From: Candidatus Saccharimonadales bacterium
Lineage (GTDB): Bacteria > Patescibacteriota > Saccharimonadia > Saccharimonadales > JACDFO01
Direction: 5' to 3'
Assembly: GCA_038255465.1 (NCBI GenBank)
Contig: JBBSLJ010000005.1
Span: forward strand, 1-56,621
Length of the DNA: 56,621 bases
A program made the position numbers and the translations under genes. Positions 17,995 through 49,656 of the stretch are shown here, piece after piece (the stretch's first letter is position 1; every line of letters starts with the position of its first letter). A model generated the notes under the pieces. It had not been told where the DNA came from and searched no databases. It saw only the letters and a list, made by a program, of their open reading frames with translations.

Positions 17995-18023
17995 ATTTTA
18001 ACAGAACTAAACTTCTTCTGCAA
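17995..18023 (-). promoter_or_regulatory. sigma70-type promoter for rpsL-rpsG-fusA, overlapping the rpoC stop
   Basis: TTGCAG-N17-TAAAAT with a TG extended -10. Confidence 0.55.
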
Positions 18024-21000
18024 CAGGTGCGGGTGCCAGAACAGTTTCTACGTCGCTGAAACCGTCATTGTCAGTATCGGGCAACCAGCCGGTTCCGACT
18101 GGAATACGTCGTCCAAGGATAACGTTTTCTTTTAGACCAAAGAGCTTGTCAACCTTACCGCTTGTGGCAGCTGCAATCAGCACACGTGTAGTGTCCTGGA
18201 ATGAAGCGGCACTCAGGAACGAATCAGTTGAAAGGCTGGCTTTTGTGATACCGAGTAGCAACTGCGTGTAAACTGCAAGGTTCTTGCCGTTTTTAGCCAA
18301 TTGTTCGTTGGCTTCAACAACCGCAAGTTTTGAAACAATATCACCCGTAACAAATTCTGTGTCGCCAGCTTCGTCGATTTGAACGCGGCTAAACATTTGA
18401 CGCACAATGATTTCAAGGTGCTTATCAGCAATGTTTTGACCCTGTGAAGCAAAGATTCGAAGGATTTCGTTCATGATGTAACGCTGCGTTGCTTCAACAC
18501 CCTGCAATCGCATAAGCTCATGCAAGTTGATAGAACCGTTAGTTAGACGCTGACCGGCTACAACCTTGTCGCCATCTTTAACCACCAACTGTTTAAAGCC
18601 TGGTATCTCGTAACGAACGGCGCTGTCGCTGCTAGGCACGATCATAACCTTCTTTTTGGTTACTTCTGCCTTACCGGCAACGCGGGCAATAATAGGATCA
18701 TTACCGTCTTCATCTGCGGCAAGCACATCACCAATAGCTATGTCGGTTCCAGTTGCTACTTGAGCCACACGGATGCCTAGGTCAAATTCAATCTTTTCTT
18801 TTTCATCTGCAGCAACTTGGACGACATAATGGTCGCCTTCTTCAAATGCCTGCACTGTGCCGGAGATGTCGCTGACAAAAGCCTGACCTTTAGGGGTGCG
18901 GACCTCAAATAGTTCTTCAACACGAGGAAGACCTTGCGTAATATCCTCGGCTGCAGCAGAACCACCACCGTGATATGAACGAAGGGTCAACTGCGTACCA
19001 GGTTCACCGATACTTTGGGCAGCAATAACACCAACCGGATGATGATTAGCCACCACTAGACCAGTGGCCGGGTCAACACCGTAAGATTTCATAGGAACAC
19101 CGCGAACGCTTGTAGCGCTCAGGACACTCATGATTTTTACGCCATCGATACTTTCATCTGCTTCAATTGCTTCGGCGGTCTTTTTGGTGATCAAATCACC
19201 ACGCTTTAGATGGCCTTTCAGCGTATCTGCTGCAAAACGGCCTTCAAGCCGGGCTGCAAACGCTACGCCAATTTCAGCGGCATCAGCACGATACTGCGCA
19301 AATCCAAGGTCGCCCTCTTCGTCGTCAATAGTGAATACATCCTGCGATACATCAACCAAACGACGCGTCAGATAACCTGAGTCAGCGGTCTTAAGAGCGG
19401 TGTCAATCATCGTCTTTCGGGTACCACGGGTTGACGTAAAGTATTCGAGTGGGGTCAATCCGACTTTATAGCCGGACTTAATCGGCAACTCGATAGCCTT
19501 ACCGGTCGTGTCCATAGTCACACCCAAGATACCAACGGCGGTTTTAACCTGACCGATATTACCACGAGCACCAGAAACAACTGCGATGGACATTGAGCTG
19601 TCTTCGTTTGCGAACTGCTCGGTGAGCACTGATTGGACTTCAGCGTCAATTTGCAGCCAGTTATCAACAATTAAACGATATCGTTCATCGTCGGTAATGA
19701 AGCCTTGCTCAAATTGCTCACTAATCTCTGCGGCTTTGTTTTCGCCCTTCTGAATAATGCCATCAAGCCCTTCAATATCATGAAAGTCACTCATACCCAT
19801 AGACAGACCGGATTTCGTTGCATATTGAAAGCCGATATCTTTGAGGTCGTCAGCTATTTCGGCGGTTTTATCCTGGCCGTACATTTGGTAGGCCAATGCC
19901 ATAACACCGTTCAAACGCTTCTTTGTCATTGGTTCATCTTGGAAAGGAAAATCATCCGGAAAGATTTCGTTGAACAAAATGCGTCCGAGAGTTGTTTCGT
20001 GTATGTGATCTCTAAACGGTAATCGTACCAGGCTCTGAAGACGGATTTTGCCTGCATCAAGCGCCATAATCGCTTCTGCAAGTGACGCATAAGCGTGTCG
20101 CTTAACACCGGCACCAGGACGCTGGTAAGTTAGGTAGTAACAGCCGAGCACAATATCTTGTTCGATGTGCAGAATTGGTGAACCATCGGCTGGTTTCAAC
20201 AAGTTCTTGTTAGCTGCCATTATTTCACGGGCTTCTGTTTGAGCTTCATCGCTCAGTGGCAAGTGAACAGCCATTTGGTCACCGTCAAAGTCAGCGTTAA
20301 AACCCTTACAGACAAGCGGGTGCAACTGAATTGCCTTACCTTCAATCAGACGAGGCATGAAAGCCTGAATAGACAGACGGTGCAATGACGGAGCACGGTT
20401 AAGCAATACATATTTGCCCTTGATGACTTCATCAAGCGCATCCCATACGGCTGTTTCACCAGTTTCAATCATGCGTGTTGCAGAACGGATATTGTGCGCG
20501 TGCTCATTAGCAATGAGATGCCCGATTACAAACGGCTTAAATAGCTCAAGCGCCATCATCTTAGGTAAGCCACACTCAGTAATATTAAGCTCTGGACCGG
20601 CGACAATTACGGAACGTCCGGAGTAGTCTACACGCTTACCGAGTAGGTTCTGACGGAAACGACCCTGTTTGCCCTTAAGCATATCGCTCAAAGACTTAAG
20701 GCGGCGGCGTTGACCAGTTGCGGCAACTGCCCGACCAGAACGTGCGTTATTGTTGTCAATCAGCGCATCCACGGCTTCTTGCAGCATACGCTGCTCGTTA
20801 CGCCTAATAACTTCAGGCGCATTCAGTTCGATTAACTTCTTAAGTCGGTTATTACGGTTAATAACTCGGCGGTACAGGTCATTTAAGTCGCTGGTTGCAA
20901 AGCGGCCACCAGTAAGTTGGACCATCGGGCGAAGATCTGGAGGAATCACCGGCAATACGGAAACACACATGCTGTTCGGTAAAATTCCGGCGCGGTCCAT

Positions 21001-21846
21001 ACTTTCGAGCAAACGAAGACGCTTTAGCAGCTTCTTTTTTCGTTGGCCCTTGGCATCTTCAGCCTCAGCAGTTAATTCTGCGAGGAGATCTTTAAGCTTA
21101 ATTTCGTCAAGGAGTTCTTTGATGGCTGCGCCACCCATGCCGACTTCAACTAAATCAGCTAATTCATCAGGTAATGCCCGGTAGTCGGTTTCTGAAATAA
21201 GTGCAAGCTTCTGCAAGCTTATTAACTGAGCCTTAAGGGTTTCATATTCTTCAGTTACTTCGTCAAGTTCCTTAGTTTGCATTTCTGCTAAGGCTTTAAC
21301 GTTTGCTTCCGGAGCTTCAGCCTCTTTTTCGAAGCGCATTTTGATAGCTTCCTTAGCGGCCGCAAACTCAGCCTCTTTGTCGGCGAGATATTGATCACGC
21401 TTTTCGATGTCAACTTTCTTAATGACATATGAAGCAAAGTAGGCAATACGCTCTAAGCTCTTTACAGTCATACCGAGCAAAAGGCCTATAGCACTTGGCG
21501 TACCGCGGAGGAACCAAATATGTGCAACAGGGCTGGCCAAACTAATGTGGCCCATACGCTCACGTCGGACAATCGATTTGGTGACAATTTCGCCATTCTT
21601 ATCAACTGCAGCTTCGCGTGACCTAACACCTTTGTATTTTGCATCATGCGGATTTATGTCTTTGACAGGGCCAAAGATTCGCTCGCAGAATAAACCGTCT
21701 CGTTCAGGTTTTTGGGTTCGATAGTTAATGGTCTCTGGTTTTGTTATTTCGCCGTGGCTCCAGTCCAAAATATCATTTGGACTTGCCACGCTTAAACGGA
21801 CTGAATCGAAATCGGCGATGTTTGTACTTTGTGAATAGCGTCTCAT
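18007..21846 (-). CDS. rpoC: RNA polymerase beta' subunit
   Basis: NADFDGD active-site motif, LGKRVDYSGRS, DSGYLTRRLVDV, SIGEPGTQLT. Start set at ATG 21846, just after the rpoB stop. Confidence 0.99.
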   Translation of the reverse strand: MRRYSQSTNIADFDSVRLSVASPNDILDWSHGEITKPETINYRTQKPERDGLFCERIFGPVKDINPHDAKYKGVRSREAAVDKNGEIVTKSIVRRERMGHISLASPVAHIWFLRGTPSAIGLLLGMTVKSLERIAYFASYVIKKVDIEKRDQYLADKEAEFAAAKEAIKMRFEKEAEAPEANVKALAEMQTKELDEVTEEYETLKAQLISLQKLALISETDYRALPDELADLVEVGMGGAAIKELLDEIKLKDLLAELTAEAEDAKGQRKKKLLKRLRLLESMDRAGILPNSMCVSVLPVIPPDLRPMVQLTGGRFATSDLNDLYRRVINRNNRLKKLIELNAPEVIRRNEQRMLQEAVDALIDNNNARSGRAVAATGQRRRLKSLSDMLKGKQGRFRQNLLGKRVDYSGRSVIVAGPELNITECGLPKMMALELFKPFVIGHLIANEHAHNIRSATRMIETGETAVWDALDEVIKGKYVLLNRAPSLHRLSIQAFMPRLIEGKAIQLHPLVCKGFNADFDGDQMAVHLPLSDEAQTEAREIMAANKNLLKPADGSPILHIEQDIVLGCYYLTYQRPGAGVKRHAYASLAEAIMALDAGKIRLQSLVRLPFRDHIHETTLGRILFNEIFPDDFPFQDEPMTKKRLNGVMALAYQMYGQDKTAEIADDLKDIGFQYATKSGLSMGMSDFHDIEGLDGIIQKGENKAAEISEQFEQGFITDDERYRLIVDNWLQIDAEVQSVLTEQFANEDSSMSIAVVSGARGNIGQVKTAVGILGVTMDTTGKAIELPIKSGYKVGLTPLEYFTSTRGTRKTMIDTALKTADSGYLTRRLVDVSQDVFTIDDEEGDLGFAQYRADAAEIGVAFAARLEGRFAADTLKGHLKRGDLITKKTAEAIEADESIDGVKIMSVLSATSVRGVPMKSYGVDPATGLVVANHHPVGVIAAQSIGEPGTQLTLRSYHGGGSAAAEDITQGLPRVEELFEVRTPKGQAFVSDISGTVQAFEEGDHYVVQVAADEKEKIEFDLGIRVAQVATGTDIAIGDVLAADEDGNDPIIARVAGKAEVTKKKVMIVPSSDSAVRYEIPGFKQLVVKDGDKVVAGQRLTNGSINLHELMRLQGVEATQRYIMNEILRIFASQGQNIADKHLEIIVRQMFSRVQIDEAGDTEFVTGDIVSKLAVVEANEQLAKNGKNLAVYTQLLLGITKASLSTDSFLSAASFQDTTRVLIAAATSGKVDKLFGLKENVILGRRIPVGTGWLPDTDNDGFSDVETVLAPAPVAEEV

Positions 21847-21847
21847 A

Positions 21848-24800
21848 TTACGCCTCCTCCTCTTCATCAACATTTGCTATAGCAACGTCCTCATCATCTG
21901 TAGCAATGACCGTTGTTCCTGTAATATCATCGTCAACATCCATAACTACGAAGTCATTTTCTGTAACTTCAGCAGTTACATCAATATCTGATATGGATGG
22001 TTCAGGCACTAAAACTTCTGGCAGGTGTGCGGCTTCATCTTTGATGTTTTCTGCCAAAACTGCTTCTGCATCAATAACTGCATCAGATACAACTAGGTCA
22101 ACCTTAAGACATAGGCCCTGAAGCTCTTTAACAAGCACGTTGAAAGATTCTGGAATCTTTGGTCCAACAATCTCGGTGCCCTTAATGATGGCTTCGTAGG
22201 CCTTTGAGCGGCCGTAGACGTCATCTGATTTAATCGTCAACATTTCCTGCAAAGTATTCGATGCGCCATATGCTTCGAGCGCCCACACTTCCATTTCTCC
22301 AAATCGCTGACCACCGTTTTGCGCTTTACCGCCCAATGGCTGTTGCGTGACCATAGTATATGGACCGGTTGATCGAGCGTGGATTTTATCTGCAATCATG
22401 TGGTTTAGCTTGATCATGTACATAGAACCAACTGTTGTCAGCTCCGTAAATGCCTCACCCGTGCGACCGTCGTAAAGCTGTTGCTTGCCGCTTTCCGGCA
22501 ATCCAGCTTCTTTCAATAGTTCTTCAATCTTTTGTGACGAAACGCCGTCAAATGACGGACTGGCAACTTTCATGCCAAGCGCACGCGCAGCCATACCAAG
22601 GTGCGTTTCAAACAACTGACCAATGTTCATACGTGAAGGCACGCCAAGTGGGTTCAGCAATACGTCAACCGGTGTTCCATCTGCCATAAACGGCATGTCT
22701 TCGATTGGCAGAATACGGGCAATTACACCCTTGTTGCCGTGACGTCCACCAAGCTTGTCACCAACGCTAATCTTACGCATTTGTGCCACAAAGACCTGAA
22801 TTTGCATGAGTACGCCAGCTTTAAGTTCGTGGCCGTTTGCCCGGCTAAAGACTTTAACACCAACAACTTTACCGTGCTTACCGTTTGGCATTCGCTGCGA
22901 AGTATCACGGACTTCTTTTGCCTTTTCACCAAAGATAGCGCGCAAAAGCCTTTCTTCGGAACTAAGTTCTTGTTCACCCTTTGGAGTAATCTTACCGACC
23001 AAAATATCGCCGGGGTGTACCTCGGCGCCAATACGGACGATGCCCTCTTCGTCAAGATGACGGAGAGCGTCTTCGGACACGTTAGGGATATCCCTGGTTA
23101 CAATTTCTGGACCAAGCTTGGTTTCACGAACTTCTACCATAAAGTCGACAATATGAACGGACGTGAGTGTGTCGTCTTCGACTAATTTACGCGAAATAAT
23201 AATCGCATCTTCAAAGTTATAGCCATTCCATGGCATAAATGACACGATTAGATCTTTACCAAGTGCCAGTTCGCCGTCTGCAACAGACATTCCCTCGATG
23301 ATTGGATCACCCTTTTCAAGTTTGTCGCCGGTGTTAACAACCACTTTCTGATTGATCGAACTGCCTTCGTTGGACCTGATGAAGTGTTGCGGGCGGTAAG
23401 AAACCGTGCCGTCCTTATATTTTACGAGCACTTCATCGCCAGCGGCTTTTACTACCTCTCCGTCTTCATGAGCAAGAATTAGCTGTCCACTGTTGCTAGC
23501 TGCAACCGTCTCCATGCCTGTACCTACAATTGGGCTTGCTGGTGAGACCAGTGGCACCGCTTGTCGTTGCTGGTTAGAACCCATCAAACTTCGGTAGACG
23601 TAGTTTTTCTCTACAAAAGGAATCAAACCGGCAGAAGAACCAATAATCTGGCGACGGCTGGCGTCCATATGTGTAACATCATCGGCATCAACTTCTCCGG
23701 ATTTTAAGTATGAACGAGCCGAAACGCGTTCGTTTACAAAGAATCCATTGTCGTCAACTTCTTCACCTGCGCTGGCAATAACCGCATGCTCTTCATCAGA
23801 GGCATTTAGATACACTACATCACTCGTCACTACGGCCTTAACCGGCCAGGTGATTTGATCTTTACGAGCAGCTAACTGCTTGGCTTGATCGGCAGTGATT
23901 TTTGAACCGGCTTTGACAATTACTTTGCCATTTTCATTTTCAAGATCAACTGCTGCAGTAAATCCGGCAGCGTCTTTTGCTGTCACGGCATTCTTGACTT
24001 TGCGATAAGGCGTCTCAATGAAACCATAGTCGTTTATACGAGCGTAGCTTGCCAGATTAAGCACCAAGCCAATGTTTGCGCCTTCTGGAGTTTCTACGGC
24101 ACATATGCGACCGTAGTGCGTTGCATGTGCGTCACGGACTTCAAAACCGGCACGTTCGCGGCTTAAGCCACCAGGGCCCATTGAACTAAGACGACGTTTG
24201 TGTGCCAGCTCAGATAGCGGGTTAATCTGATCCATAAACTGTGAAAGCTGACTGCTTGCAAAAAATTCACGTACGGCAGCAACCACAGGACGGGCGTTAA
24301 TCAGCTGGTTTGGAGTAACCGTTTCGATTTCACTCATAGACATTCGGTCTTTGGTGTTACGCTCCATGCGCAACAAGCCGATGCGGAACTGACGCTGTAC
24401 GAGCTCACCAACCAACTTTACGCGGCGGTTAGCCAGGCTGTCGATATCATCAGCAGGCTCCTGTGTATTATTGAGTCGAATGATTTCGGCAATAATCGCA
24501 GTTAAGTCTTCTAGACGCATAACCCGGTTTTCTGCCGTATTTGGTATATCAATATTTAGACGTTTGTTGATTTTATAACGTCCAACCCGGCTGAAATCGA
24601 AGCGCTTGAAGTTATAGAACATGTTTTCAAGCAGGCTTCGAGCGTTGTCCACGGTTGCAAGATCACCTGGACGTAAACGACGGTACACTTCAATCAACGC
24701 ATCATTAGCGCCTTTAGCTGGGTCCTTATCAAGTGTTGCTTCGAGGTAGCTTAGCTTGCCTTGGTCAACATGCTTAAAGGTGTCTTTCATTTGATTTTCA

Positions 24801-25405
24801 GTCATACCAAGTGCGCGCAGCAAAGTAGTAACTGCAATTTTGCGTTTTCGGTCGATTTTGACATATAGAGCACCGGACGCGGCGGTTTCGAACTCAAGCC
24901 ATGCACCACGGCCTGGAATAACTTTGGCGCCATACTGATTGTGTGTGCCGTGTGAATCAGCAGTAAAGAATACACCAGCCGAACGGATTAACTGTGACAC
25001 CACGACACGCTCAGCACCGTTTATAACAAATGTACCGCGTTCGGTCATCCACGGATAGTCACCAAGGTAAATCTCTTGTTCTTTAATTTCACCGGTAATT
25101 TTATTAGTAAGCTCAACGGTAGCCTTGAGCGGAGCATCATAAGAAACGTTATTCTCACGTGCCTCAGGTTCGGTGACCTTTGGTGCTTCAAAGCGGTAGC
25201 CTTTGAAACGAAGTGATAACTTTGTACCTGTGTAATCATCAATCGGGCTGATTTCGGCTAATAGTTCGCCAAGCCCTTCCTCTACAAACCACTGGAATGA
25301 GCGGTTTTGGTGGTCGACCAAATTTGGTAGTTCTAGTACGTCATCTGTCTTAGTAAAGTACTTGCGCATTTTCTGCGCATTCTTAGTGCTGGTGCTCTTA
25401 GCCAT
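21848..25405 (-). CDS. rpoB: RNA polymerase beta subunit
   Basis: SQLSQFMDQINPLSEL, ETPEGANIGL, GDKLGGRHGNKG, GGQRFGEMEVWAL. Confidence 0.99.
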   Translation of the reverse strand: MAKSTSTKNAQKMRKYFTKTDDVLELPNLVDHQNRSFQWFVEEGLGELLAEISPIDDYTGTKLSLRFKGYRFEAPKVTEPEARENNVSYDAPLKATVELTNKITGEIKEQEIYLGDYPWMTERGTFVINGAERVVVSQLIRSAGVFFTADSHGTHNQYGAKVIPGRGAWLEFETAASGALYVKIDRKRKIAVTTLLRALGMTENQMKDTFKHVDQGKLSYLEATLDKDPAKGANDALIEVYRRLRPGDLATVDNARSLLENMFYNFKRFDFSRVGRYKINKRLNIDIPNTAENRVMRLEDLTAIIAEIIRLNNTQEPADDIDSLANRRVKLVGELVQRQFRIGLLRMERNTKDRMSMSEIETVTPNQLINARPVVAAVREFFASSQLSQFMDQINPLSELAHKRRLSSMGPGGLSRERAGFEVRDAHATHYGRICAVETPEGANIGLVLNLASYARINDYGFIETPYRKVKNAVTAKDAAGFTAAVDLENENGKVIVKAGSKITADQAKQLAARKDQITWPVKAVVTSDVVYLNASDEEHAVIASAGEEVDDNGFFVNERVSARSYLKSGEVDADDVTHMDASRRQIIGSSAGLIPFVEKNYVYRSLMGSNQQRQAVPLVSPASPIVGTGMETVAASNSGQLILAHEDGEVVKAAGDEVLVKYKDGTVSYRPQHFIRSNEGSSINQKVVVNTGDKLEKGDPIIEGMSVADGELALGKDLIVSFMPWNGYNFEDAIIISRKLVEDDTLTSVHIVDFMVEVRETKLGPEIVTRDIPNVSEDALRHLDEEGIVRIGAEVHPGDILVGKITPKGEQELSSEERLLRAIFGEKAKEVRDTSQRMPNGKHGKVVGVKVFSRANGHELKAGVLMQIQVFVAQMRKISVGDKLGGRHGNKGVIARILPIEDMPFMADGTPVDVLLNPLGVPSRMNIGQLFETHLGMAARALGMKVASPSFDGVSSQKIEELLKEAGLPESGKQQLYDGRTGEAFTELTTVGSMYMIKLNHMIADKIHARSTGPYTMVTQQPLGGKAQNGGQRFGEMEVWALEAYGASNTLQEMLTIKSDDVYGRSKAYEAIIKGTEIVGPKIPESFNVLVKELQGLCLKVDLVVSDAVIDAEAVLAENIKDEAAHLPEVLVPEPSISDIDVTAEVTENDFVVMDVDDDITGTTVIATDDEDVAIANVDEEEEA

Positions 25406-25615: not shown

Positions 25616-26275
25616 TCAACCCTGAAATGTAATTTCTAGTTGGTCGCCAGCTGCTTTTGAAACAAGAAAGTTAGCGGCATAAAGCTGCAGGACAGATTGG
25701 TCTTTAGTTATTCCGTACGGATCACCTTCTGTGCCGGACGAAAGAACCGACGGTTCGCCAGCTTGGGCAAGGAAATTATGCAGGCCTCGGTTGTAGTCAG
25801 TATTGGTAGGAGTGGTGGCAAAGACATAATTCAGCAAAGCATCATCGCTTACACCATAAATCCCGGGATGTGATGCATCAGGGTTTACATGTTGTTTAAA
25901 ACTTTCTCGTGAACTTGCCTCTATCAATGCGCGTCCGGTCTGCTCGTGCGTCTCATCATTTGCATCCCGCACTAACCAGTAATCAAGGTCTGTGCCAAAA
26001 AATGCTCCATTTGACGGGTGGAGTAACGTTTGACCAAGTATAAGCGTAGCGACGCCAACCGCGACTTTGCCATCCCGGACAACAAAGGCCTTTACAGCTT
26101 CAGAACTTGCCACCCTGGCAACGGACTTTATACTTCTTGGCAAATCTCGATATCGCGTAACTGTACCGGCGAAAAACTCTCCTAGCCAATCTTTTTCTGC
26201 CGAAATTAGTTCATGCAAATCATAGCCCTGTTTTGCGGATCGCACTTTTGAATAGTGATCTAGTTTTATGCTCAT
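25616..26275 (-). CDS. hypothetical protein, possibly GNAT-like fold
   Basis: 219 aa; AFVVRDGKVAVGVATL...LDYWL...TGRALIEA loosely resembles acetyltransferase strand/helix patterns. Confidence 0.55.
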   Translation of the reverse strand: MSIKLDHYSKVRSAKQGYDLHELISAEKDWLGEFFAGTVTRYRDLPRSIKSVARVASSEAVKAFVVRDGKVAVGVATLILGQTLLHPSNGAFFGTDLDYWLVRDANDETHEQTGRALIEASSRESFKQHVNPDASHPGIYGVSDDALLNYVFATTPTNTDYNRGLHNFLAQAGEPSVLSSGTEGDPYGITKDQSVLQLYAANFLVSKAAGDQLEITFQG

Positions 26276-48306: not shown

Positions 48307-49656
48307 TTACTGTTCTTCAAGAAATGAGTTCAAAGCTGAGCGGACGTCAGTTAGACCATAATACGATGACGGTTTTTTATTCCCTTTAATAATCGGCCCG
48401 ATTGCACCATCAAAACCCAGTTTTTTTGCTTCAGCTAATCGTTTCTCTATAAATGGCACATGACGAATTTCACCCGAGAGTCCAACTTCTCCAAACACTA
48501 CTGCATTCTTCTTTAGTTGTAGGCCTTTTGATGCACTAGCAATTGCCATGATGACGGCAAGATCAGCAGCTGGTTCGCTCAAGCGTATGCCCCCGACAAT
48601 ATTTACATAAATATCCTGATCTGCAAGATTAAGCTTTGTCCGGCGTTCAAGCATTGCGACTAACAAATTAACCCTATTAAGATCTAAACCGCTTGCAGCC
48701 CTCTTGGGGTAACCGTAGCTGGTACGATTAACTAATGCCTGTACCTCGACAAGCAGCGGACGCGTTCCTTCCATGGTCGCGAGCACAATTGAACCATCGC
48801 TTATTTGTCGCTCTGCCAACAAGGCTGCAGATGGGTTTTCAACCGGTTTAAGTCCTTCGTCCTTCATTTCAAAAATACCGGCTTCATTGGTAGAACCGTA
48901 CCTGTTTTTAATTGCCCGGAGGACCTTAAAACCACCATACCTGTCGCCCTCAAGCTGCAGCACAACATCTACCACATGCTCTAACACCTTTGGACCAGCA
49001 ATTGAACCTTCCTTGGTAACGTGCCCAACGAGCAATAAGGCCGTGTTGGCTCGCTTTGAAGCAGCCGTGAGCAGTTGTGTACTATTAGTAATCTGGCTGA
49101 CATTACCAGCAGCTGACGCAACGGCCGCACAGGCTATGGTCTGGATTGAATCAACAACTACTAATTTGTATTGTCCGCCGGCAATTGTCGCGGCAATATC
49201 ATCTGCACTTGTGCTGGTTGCCAGCAGTAGTTTAGCGCTCGTTGTGCCGAGCCTTTTGGCGCGCAAACCAATTTGATGGGCTGATTCCTCGCCGCTGACA
49301 TACAAAACCGGATAGTTTTTAGAAAGTTCATATGCAAGCTGTAAAAGCAGTGTGCTTTTTCCGATGCCAGGCTGGCCGGCGATTAAGGTAACACTTCCGG
49401 CAACGATTCCGCCGCCAAGTACGTTGTCGACTTCGTTCACGCCGGTAGACAAACGTTTATGGTCAGTAGCAAGCGATGATAAAACGCTTTGAGTTTGAAG
49501 AGTCGTACCGTCAGAACCGGCGCGAGTTAGTGATGAAGTCGTTAACTGCTCTTCTAGCGTGTTCCATTCGCCACACGAATAACACTTGCCGCTCCAGGTA
49601 GAACTGGATGCGCCACAGCTGCTGCACACGTACTGAACACTCCCCTTTTTTGCCAT
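48307..49656 (-). CDS. radA: DNA repair protein RadA/Sms
   Basis: N-terminal CSSC...CYSC, GQPGIGKST, DSIQ, KNRYG, Lon-like C-terminus. Confidence 0.98.
   Translation of the reverse strand: MAKKGSVQYVCSSCGASSSTWSGKCYSCGEWNTLEEQLTTSSLTRAGSDGTTLQTQSVLSSLATDHKRLSTGVNEVDNVLGGGIVAGSVTLIAGQPGIGKSTLLLQLAYELSKNYPVLYVSGEESAHQIGLRAKRLGTTSAKLLLATSTSADDIAATIAGGQYKLVVVDSIQTIACAAVASAAGNVSQITNSTQLLTAASKRANTALLLVGHVTKEGSIAGPKVLEHVVDVVLQLEGDRYGGFKVLRAIKNRYGSTNEAGIFEMKDEGLKPVENPSAALLAERQISDGSIVLATMEGTRPLLVEVQALVNRTSYGYPKRAASGLDLNRVNLLVAMLERRTKLNLADQDIYVNIVGGIRLSEPAADLAVIMAIASASKGLQLKKNAVVFGEVGLSGEIRHVPFIEKRLAEAKKLGFDGAIGPIIKGNKKPSSYYGLTDVRSALNSFLEEQ

What the first reader, a model, noticed from the sequence alone, without database searches (positions are those of the whole stretch)
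19080..21660. RNA polymerase beta' has lost all eight zinc-coordinating cysteines
Seen: the N-terminal zinc-binding domain reads VKDINPHDAKYKGVRSREAAVDKNGEIVT, the same length as the canonical VKDYECLCGKYK...VICEKCGVEVT. E. coli C70, C72, C85 and C88 become P, D, V and N. The second site reads DDEEG...SVLSATSVRGVPMKSYG, so C814, C888, C895 and C898 become E, A, P and S. NADFDGD is intact. The trigger loop reads QLTLRSYH instead of QLTMRTFH. Known: both Zn sites are near-universal. The first acts in initiation, termination and antitermination, and the second in folding and assembly. RadA here keeps its Cys ribbon, so this is not a general Cys loss. Inference: a zinc-independent RNA polymerase. 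It may be shared by the whole lineage.
Basis: partly seen in the sequence, partly recalled or inferred. Interest (0 to 1): 0.7.

Follow-up and report, generated by a model that had tools for sequence, protein, structure and literature searches.

The report
RNA polymerase without its zinc sites
This Saccharibacteria (TM7) bacterium, like its whole order, has replaced all eight cysteines that hold the two structural zinc ions of bacterial RNA polymerase. The first site is still under strong selection, so the enzyme most likely works without structural zinc, as apparently does the cell's ribosome.

Summary
rpoC (window 18007-21873, minus strand) is a single-copy, intact beta' gene. Direct alignment to E. 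coli RpoC gives C70/C72/C85/C88 -> P75/D77/V90/N93 and C814/C888/C895/C898 -> E853/A920/P927/S930, with no length change at site 1 and NADFDGD intact.

The trait belongs to the order, not to this genome. All 50 sampled genomes of the same GTDB order (24 families, Saccharimonadales by record names) lack Zn1 and at least the last two Zn2 cysteines. All 20 sampled genomes of other orders of the class keep all eight. On an RpoC tree with these regions masked, the loss is one event.

The Cys-free "zinc-binding domain" is more conserved than the Cys form in sister orders, and its synonymous codons are fully scrambled, so it is selected and not decaying. Two of the four ligand positions hold residues that cannot bind metal (Pro, Val), and the others vary within the clade. 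A substitute His/Asp zinc site is therefore unlikely.

The same branch also removed Cys4 sites from L31, L36, S14, RecR, GatB, PheS and two PilB paralogs. Total cysteine did not fall, and about 20 other zinc proteins, including RadA, keep theirs.

Zinc independence itself is inferred from sequence, not measured. I found no published report.

The parts
18007..21873 (-). rpoC (RNA polymerase beta'). The ORF is 1288 aa; the probable start is M10 at 21846 (1279 aa).
   Evidence: It is the only rpoC in the 1.21-Mb genome.
21580..21666 (-). Cys-free remnant of the N-terminal zinc-binding domain (residues 70-98, VKDINPHDAKYKGVRSREAAVDKNGEIVT). The former ligands are P75 (21649-21651), D77 (21643-21645), V90 (21604-21606) and N93 (21595-21597).
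   Evidence: The segment is nearly invariant in the order, with all synonymous codons in use. Seven of the protein's 13 branch-diagnostic substitutions lie here.
19084..19317 (-). Former second zinc site. E853 (19315-19317), A920 (19114-19116), P927 (19093-19095) and S930 (19084-19086) replace E. coli C814, C888, C895 and C898.
   Evidence: The last two ligands are lost in all 50 order members. The first two survive as relics in some crown families. AlphaFold2 confidence in the region is 77-91 pLDDT.
20278..20298 (-). Catalytic NADFDGD motif, intact (D528, D530, D532).
18970..18993 (-). Trigger-loop motif QLTLRSYH (E. coli QLTMRTFH).
   Evidence: M->L is order-wide. S and Y are a family-level variant.
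21848..25405 (-). rpoB (beta subunit), immediately upstream. The clpP-rpoB-rpoC-rpsL order is the same as in the sister-order genome.
48307..49656 (-). radA, which keeps its N-terminal Cys4 ribbon. It serves as an internal control showing that zinc sites are not lost wholesale.

Best explanation
SHOWN. On the stem branch of this Saccharibacteria order (Saccharimonadales by record names), both Cys4 zinc sites of RNA polymerase beta' were abolished once and never restored.

- Site 1, the zinc-binding domain at the RNA exit channel, was not deleted or left to decay. It was rebuilt at the same length by a concerted set of about 13 substitutions in 29 residues: W73I, E74N, C75P, Y76H, C77D, G78A, Y85S, K86R, V88A, V89A, C90V, C93N and V95E.
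- Five of the seven basic positions of the E. coli domain are kept (K79, K81, R84, R86, K92).
- The rebuilt segment has since been under strong purifying selection.
- Site 2 lost its last two ligands at the same time. The two leftover cysteines were then lost repeatedly.

INFERRED. The core enzyme contains no structural zinc. The former zinc ribbon is held together by packing (Pro/Val/Ile/Ala) and polar contacts, and it still does the domain's job at the RNA exit channel.

SHOWN. The same branch removed Cys4 sites from ribosomal proteins L31, L36 and S14 and from RecR, GatB, PheS and two PilB ATPases. Total cysteine content did not fall, and about 20 other zinc proteins kept their sites.

INFERRED, weaker. 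This selective removal of zinc from the most abundant machines (ribosome, RNA polymerase) lowers the cell's zinc requirement, or its sensitivity to thiol oxidation, in a tiny epibiotic cell.
For: - Ligand mapping to E. coli.
- Functional gene: single copy, intact catalytic motifs, conserved operon.
- Distribution: 50 of 50 order genomes are Cys-free at Zn1 and at the last two Zn2 positions, while 20 of 20 genomes of other orders of the class have all eight Cys.
- Single origin: with the zinc regions masked, the order is monophyletic (support 100). The Zn1 loss is 1 change and the loss at the positions matching E. coli C895/C898 is 1 change. The relic positions matching C814/C888 need 6-7 changes.
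- Nearest clusters: all 120 nearest 90%-identity clusters read PD[V/I][N/K].
- Wider search: among the 150 best of 1.84 billion representatives, 12 are Cys-free and all that could be placed fall inside this clade. Of the other 138, 137 keep Cys4 and one is an unreadable fragment.
- Selection: entropy of residues 70-98 is 0.26 bits in the order, against 0.39 in sister orders and 0.86 for the whole protein. Invariant residues use all their synonymous codons.
- Concentration of change: 7 of the 13 branch-diagnostic substitutions fall in these 29 residues (Fisher p = 2e-9).
- Non-ligand character: Pro and Val at two positions; R/K at the second knuckle in L122; PSVS in P0149.
- Proteome context: Cys frequency is 0.64% here against 0.60% in the sister. 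Proteins with two or more Cys knuckles number 21 against 29. The same sites are lost in a second, divergent order member, G283. L36, L31 and S14 are Cys-free single copies. Sites kept include PriA, DnaJ, Fpg, UvrA, AlaRS, IleRS, LeuRS, NrdR, PilD, MsrB and RadA.
Against: - No metal content was measured. Everything about zinc is inferred from ligand loss.
- AlphaFold2 gives the Cys-free domain low confidence (pLDDT 39-45), so a defined metal-free fold is not shown. The matched control with a Cys-bearing sister protein was also poor (48-52), so this neither supports nor refutes.
- H76, D77 and D91 are highly conserved. In principle they could contribute to a weak site for some other metal.
- The zinc-economy motive has no independent support. 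No ZnuA-type importer is present in either Cys-free or Cys-bearing genomes. A FUR-family gene occurs here but not in G283 or G401.
- RecR, GatB, PheS and PilB are not especially abundant proteins.
The proteome comparison rests on two order genomes and one sister genome.
Confidence: 0.75

Rival explanations
1. The remodelled domain still binds zinc, or another metal, through new His/Asp/Asn/Glu ligands (H76, D77, D91, N93, E95). The polymerase would then not be metal-free at site 1.
For: D77 and D91 are invariant in the 50 order genomes. H76 is present in 47 of 50 and N93 in 43 of 50.
Against: - Two of the four original ligand positions are Pro and Val.
- H76 is N, Y or F in some members.
- Positions 90 and 93 are R/K in L122 and K/E in others.
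- D77 is S in P0149.
- D91 is equally invariant in the zinc-bearing sister orders, so its conservation is not new.
- In a zinc knuckle the residues between the ligands point away from the metal (established knowledge).
Confidence: 0.1
2. The former zinc-binding domain is now a flexible, intrinsically disordered basic segment. It orders only on nascent RNA, DNA or a partner protein, and is conserved for that interface rather than for a fold.
For: AlphaFold2 pLDDT is below 50 across model residues 63-94. The basic residues are retained.
Against: The Cys-bearing control was also poorly predicted, so the low confidence is not specific. Conservation extends to small hydrophobic and Pro/Gly positions typical of a packed hairpin: I73, P75, A88, A89, V90, G94.
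Confidence: 0.12
3. The loss is neutral. The class lacks Rho, and perhaps other partners of the domain, so constraint on the zinc sites relaxed and the cysteines drifted away.
For: Rho (TIGR00767) is above cut-off in 0 of 151 genomes of the class. The relic cysteines at the positions matching E. coli C814/C888 were lost 6-7 times, as expected for unconstrained positions.
Against: Rho is absent equally from the sister orders, which keep all eight Cys. Site 1 is among the most conserved segments of the protein after the change, and the change was concerted and fixed once. Drift may fit the later decay of site 2 relics, but not site 1.
Confidence: 0.05
4. Artefact: a pseudogene, an assembly error, contamination, or a second functional rpoC elsewhere.
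For: None was found. The genome is a 104-contig draft with 2.3% estimated contamination.
Against: The frame is intact at 1288 aa and the gene is single copy. The rpoB-rpoC-rpsL context is canonical. The same state is present in more than 170 independent sequences, including closed genomes.
Confidence: 0.01

Closest known systems
Canonical bacterial beta' zinc-binding domain (Zn1; E. coli C70, C72, C85, C88)
   Same: Same position, same 29-residue length and identical flanks (FGPxKD...VT.S.VRRERMGHI). Most basic residues that face nucleic acid at the RNA exit channel are retained. In E. coli this domain binds the HK022 put RNA and influences pausing (PMC9378689).
   Different: All four Cys are replaced (P, D, V, N), together with about nine further concerted substitutions. 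No plausible tetrahedral metal site remains.
Second beta' zinc site (E. coli C814, C888, C895, C898). It is reported to be needed for folding and assembly of the subunit (own knowledge: Markov et al. 1999).
   Same: The surrounding segment is retained, alignable and confidently modelled.
   Different: No Cys is left here. Across the order the last two ligands are always S/P/A... and S/A, and the first two are relics in some families.
Zinc-independent (C-) forms of Zn-ribbon ribosomal proteins L31, L33, L36 and S14, used under zinc limitation (for example PMC5912738, PMC9825181, PMC13343924)
   Same: The evolutionary move is the same: a Cys4 ribbon is converted to a Cys-free version of the same protein. 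This genome itself carries only C- L31, L36 and S14, whereas the sister-order genome has the C+ forms.
   Different: Here the C- form is the only copy, not a Zur-switched paralog. The move has also been applied to RNA polymerase, for which I found no described C- form.
Beta' proteins that lack only the second site, seen here in Brevibacterium sp. UMB10442 (L044) and two Acidimicrobiia MAGs (L072, L078)
   Same: These are independent losses of the Zn2 cysteines. The replacement pattern is similar (D/A, S, S/A/H) to that in basal Saccharimonadales (L003, L122).
   Different: They keep all four Zn1 cysteines. Loss of Zn1 was seen only in the Saccharimonadales clade, apart from one CSCC case (L017).

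Membership tests
Bacterial RNA polymerase beta' (RpoC) | Rpb1 domains 1-5 in order, with full-length similarity to solved beta' chains | tested here: met
   Pfam PF04997, PF00623, PF04983, PF05000 and PF04998. PDB hits at E = 0. Foldseek E = 1e-90 to beta' chains.
Bacterial RNA polymerase beta' (RpoC) | Catalytic NADFDGD triad and trigger-loop His | tested here: met
   D528/D530/D532 align to E. coli D460/D462/D464, and H968 aligns to H936.
Bacterial RNA polymerase beta' (RpoC) | N-terminal Cys4 zinc-binding domain (Zn1) | tested here: not met
   P75, D77, V90 and N93 stand at the four ligand positions. This is a near-universal rather than defining feature. It is intact in 137 of the 138 non-clade representatives (the other is an unreadable fragment) and in 76 of 77 other diverse loci.
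Bacterial RNA polymerase beta' (RpoC) | Second Cys4 zinc site (Zn2) | tested here: not met
   E853, A920, P927 and S930. The site is also lost independently in 3 of 77 other loci.
Bacterial RNA polymerase beta' (RpoC) | Single essential copy in rpoB-rpoC context | tested here: met
   One match in the genome. The order clpP-(orphan ORF)-rpoB-rpoC-rpsL-rpsG-fusA is seen.
Zinc-independent (C-) variants of Zn-ribbon proteins | Same domain and length, with the Cys ligands replaced by non-ligand residues | tested here: met
   The segment is 29 aa in both forms, with ligands P/D/V/N.
Zinc-independent (C-) variants of Zn-ribbon proteins | Coexists with a C+ paralog and is switched on by Zur under zinc limitation | tested here: not met
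   There is only one rpoC, and only one copy each of L31, L36 and S14. The replacement is constitutive.
Zinc-independent (C-) variants of Zn-ribbon proteins | Protein demonstrably free of zinc and functional | not testable with these tools
   This needs metal analysis and activity assays of the purified enzyme.

The most novel reading that the evidence does not exclude
Saccharimonadales would be the first cellular lineage whose multisubunit RNA polymerase has no structural zinc at all. The loss was fixed together with zinc-free versions of ribosomal proteins L31, L36 and S14. The whole core gene-expression machinery of these epibionts, which include relatives in the human mouth, would then run without structural zinc. 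That would make it a constitutive, lineage-wide version of the zinc-sparing response that other bacteria switch on only under starvation.
Probability: 0.55. Interest if true: 0.75.

Novelty: new variant of a known kind. Interest (0 to 1): 0.62.

Why it matters
Both beta' zinc sites are treated as conserved, functionally important parts of bacterial RNA polymerase. The first acts at the RNA exit channel in pausing, termination and antitermination, and the second in folding and assembly.

- A large, widespread order that has dispensed with both gives a natural answer to what the zinc is for. It shows one sequence solution, about 13 concerted changes in 29 residues, for building the exit-channel module without metal.
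- That solution can be tested directly by transplanting it into E. coli beta'.
- It extends the "C-plus/C-minus" zinc-sparing logic from small ribosomal proteins to the polymerase.
- Because the change coincides with zinc-free L31, L36 and S14, it suggests that these ultra-small epibionts have a much reduced zinc quota. That bears on their ecology and on their cultivation.
- The remodelled exit-channel surface is a clade-specific feature of an essential enzyme.

Tried and rejected
- **AlphaFold2 of residues 10-1200.** The Cys-free domain came out at pLDDT below 50, which looked like evidence for disorder. The matched control with a Cys-bearing sister protein and the same alignment was also poor at this domain (48-52). 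I therefore do not use the result for site 1. The tool returns no coordinates, so contacts could not be inspected.
- **General cysteine purge: rejected.** Cys frequency is 0.64% here against 0.60% in the sister genome. G283 is lower, at 0.43% against 0.58%.
- **Rho loss as the trigger: rejected.** Rho is absent from the whole class, including the Cys-bearing orders.
- **Zinc homeostasis genes as a correlate: uninformative.** ZnuA is absent from all five genomes tested. A FUR-family gene is present here and in one sister genome only.
- **Omega subunit: inconclusive.** It was not detected by BLAST in the own, same-order or sister genomes.
- **A trans-acting zinc protein next to rpoBC: rejected.** The only lineage-specific neighbour is a Cys-free 219-aa orphan with no homolog in G283 or G401.
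- **An independent second origin of Cys-free Zn1: rejected.** The divergent forms P0147-P0149 nest inside the clade.
- **Literature.** Five searches found no report.
Full report
**What is there.** The finding lies in a 3867-nt ORF on the minus strand (18007-21873) that encodes a 1288-aa RNA polymerase beta'.
- It has all five Rpb1 Pfam domains, E = 0 similarity to solved bacterial beta' chains, and a model that matches them by Foldseek (E = 1e-90).
- The real start is probably M10 (21846). It follows the rpoB stop by one base, has GAGGAGG upstream, and agrees with the public 1279-aa gene call.
- The gene sits in the usual clpP-rpoB-rpoC-rpsL-rpsG-fusA neighbourhood.
- It is the only rpoC in the 1.21-Mb, 95.7%-complete genome.

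**Observation check.** I fetched E. coli MG1655 rpoC and aligned it directly.
- C70, C72, C85 and C88 correspond to P75, D77, V90 and N93.
- C814, C888, C895 and C898 correspond to E853, A920, P927 and S930.
- The catalytic aspartates are kept.
- The trigger loop reads L-R-S-Y-H where E. coli has M-R-T-F-H.
- The site-1 segment is 29 residues in both proteins.
- RadA in the same window keeps its Cys4 ribbon.

**How far the trait extends.** Named relatives place the genome in Saccharibacteria/Saccharimonadales.
- I read rpoC from 50 genomes of the same GTDB order, from 24 of at least 71 families, at 59-86% identity to the query. All have P/D/V(I,R)/N(K,E) at site 1, apart from one genome with Ser in place of the Pro, and none has the last two site-2 cysteines.
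- In 20 genomes from other orders of the same class (52-57% identity), all eight cysteines are present.
- On a tree built with the zinc regions masked, the order is monophyletic (support 100). The site-1 loss needs one change, as does the loss at the positions matching E. coli C895/C898.
- The 120 nearest protein clusters from public genomes and metagenomes are all Cys-free at site 1.
- I ran a phmmer search of the domain against 1.84 billion cluster representatives. The best 150 comprised 12 Cys-free proteins, 137 with Cys4 and one unreadable fragment.
- The three most divergent Cys-free proteins (P0147-P0149, 50-52% identity, 1326-1387 aa) nest inside the order's clade on long branches.
- Among 77 other diverse bacterial loci, site 1 is intact in all but one, a Paceibacterota MAG with CSCC. 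Site 2 is lost independently in a Brevibacterium and two Acidimicrobiia.

Loss of site 1 therefore appears to be a single event that defines this order. Site-2 loss has precedents.

**Selected, not decaying.**
- Within the order, mean column entropy of residues 70-98 is 0.26 bits. The same segment in the Cys-bearing sister orders scores 0.39, and the whole protein scores 0.86.
- The invariant residues use all their synonymous codons. All four Pro codons occur at P75, all four Val codons at V90, and both Ser codon families at S85.
- Only 13 positions in the whole protein are strictly diagnostic between the order and its sisters. Seven of them lie in these 29 residues (Fisher p = 2e-9).
- The flanks are unchanged, and five of the seven basic positions of the E. 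coli domain are kept.

This is a concerted rebuild of the module, fixed once and then held. Site 2 behaves differently. Its last two ligands went on the stem. Cysteines at the first two positions survive only in some crown families and need 6-7 changes on the tree, the pattern of relics that no longer matter.

**Could it still bind zinc?** Two former ligand positions hold Pro and Val. The remaining candidates are not constant across the clade:
- H76 is N, Y or F in some members.
- The second knuckle is R/K in the basal lineage L122.
- D77 is S in P0149.
- D91 is just as invariant in the zinc-bearing sisters.

A substitute tetrahedral site is unlikely, but only metal analysis can settle it.

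AlphaFold2 did not help. The domain scored pLDDT 39-45, but a Cys-bearing sister run with the same alignment scored only 48-52. The site-2 region is confidently modelled in both.

**Context in the genome.** I compared reciprocal best hits between this genome and a near-complete sister-order genome (G401, 532 pairs).
- Cysteine frequency is 0.64% here against 0.60% there. There is no general cysteine loss.
- Proteins with two or more Cys knuckles number 21 here against 29 in the sister. The sites missing here are RpoC (both), RecR, L31, S14, GatB, PheS and two of three PilB/GspE ATPases.
- The same sites are missing in a second, divergent member of the order, G283, labelled Candidatus Microsaccharimonas.
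- L36 is also Cys-free in both order genomes and Cys-bearing in the sister. L31, L36 and S14 are single copies.
- Sites kept include PriA, a ComF-like protein, DnaJ, Fpg, UvrA, AlaRS, IleRS, LeuRS, two NrdR, PilD, MsrB, RadA and one PilB.

The RpoC change is thus part of a selective removal of structural Cys4 sites that covers the ribosome and the polymerase. It is neither an isolated oddity nor a wholesale purge.

**Correlates that did not pan out.**
- Rho is absent from all 151 sampled genomes of the class, so its absence cannot explain an order-specific change.
- ZnuA is absent from all five genomes checked, and FUR presence is patchy.
- Omega was not detectable by BLAST in any of the three genomes.

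**Prior knowledge.** Five full-text searches found no paper reporting a beta' without zinc ligands. The role of the domain at the exit channel is documented, for example in PMC9378689. Zinc-sparing C- ribosomal paralogs are well known (PMC5912738, PMC9825181, PMC13343924). Earlier notes of this scan report the same trait from at least eight other Saccharibacteria windows. I treated them as leads and re-derived each point here.

**Limits.**
- No metal measurement exists.
- The census covers 24 families of the order.
- The proteome comparison uses two order genomes and one sister genome.
I could not extend the census or check expression.

**Verdict.** This is a new variant of a known enzyme: an order-wide, selected, Cys-free and probably zinc-free RNA polymerase beta'. 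It was fixed together with zinc-free ribosomal proteins.

Noticed in passing
window 18970-18993; loci L111-L121 (family f64): The trigger loop is unusually variable in this order. M932 (E. coli numbering) is L in all 50 genomes. R933 is R, K, N or D. The f64 clade reads QLSLDSKH or QLTLDTKH, meaning R->D and F->K at residues regarded as functionally important.
   Followed up: partly
window 25616-26275 (-): A 219-aa Cys-free orphan ORF is inserted between clpP and rpoB. It has no Pfam hit and no homolog in the same-order genome G283 or the sister genome G401, where clpP abuts rpoB.
   Followed up: partly
own genome contig C11:16594-19491 (locus L242): The leucyl-tRNA synthetase carries a NUDIX hydrolase domain (residues 389-506), inserted after the editing domain.
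   Followed up: no
loci L044, L072, L078, L003, L122: The second beta' zinc site has been lost independently in Brevibacterium sp. UMB10442 and two Acidimicrobiia MAGs. The Acidimicrobiia pattern (C888->D, C895->S, C898->S/A) matches that of basal Saccharimonadales, while the Brevibacterium one differs (A, S, H). The Acidimicrobiia also carry a PFDRP insertion at the first ligand.
   Followed up: no
locus L017 (Paceibacterota MAG): Site 1 reads C-S-C-C (ECDSAKYR...), a single-ligand loss outside the Saccharimonadales clade.
   Followed up: no
proteins P0147, P0148, P0149: These are three long-branch, longer (1326-1387 aa) Cys-free RpoC representatives. One reads PSVS/NPFSH at site 1. They nest inside the order but are only 50-52% identical to the query, and their organisms are unknown.
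   Followed up: partly
window about 20969-20971 (residue S301): One of the few branch-diagnostic changes outside the zinc sites is W301S, in the conserved PEWM motif just before the lid. It changed on the same branch as W73I. The two may be a lost Trp-Trp contact between the clamp core and the zinc domain. I could not check this without coordinates.
   Followed up: no
own genome C14:10820-12607, C25:4601-6205, C2:53953-55764: There are three PilB/GspE-type ATPase paralogs. Two have lost the C-terminal tetracysteine motif and one keeps it. In G283 all three have lost it.
   Followed up: partly
class-wide (151 genomes): No Rho factor is above the family cut-off anywhere in the class. No ZnuA-type zinc importer is present in the five genomes checked.
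   Followed up: partly
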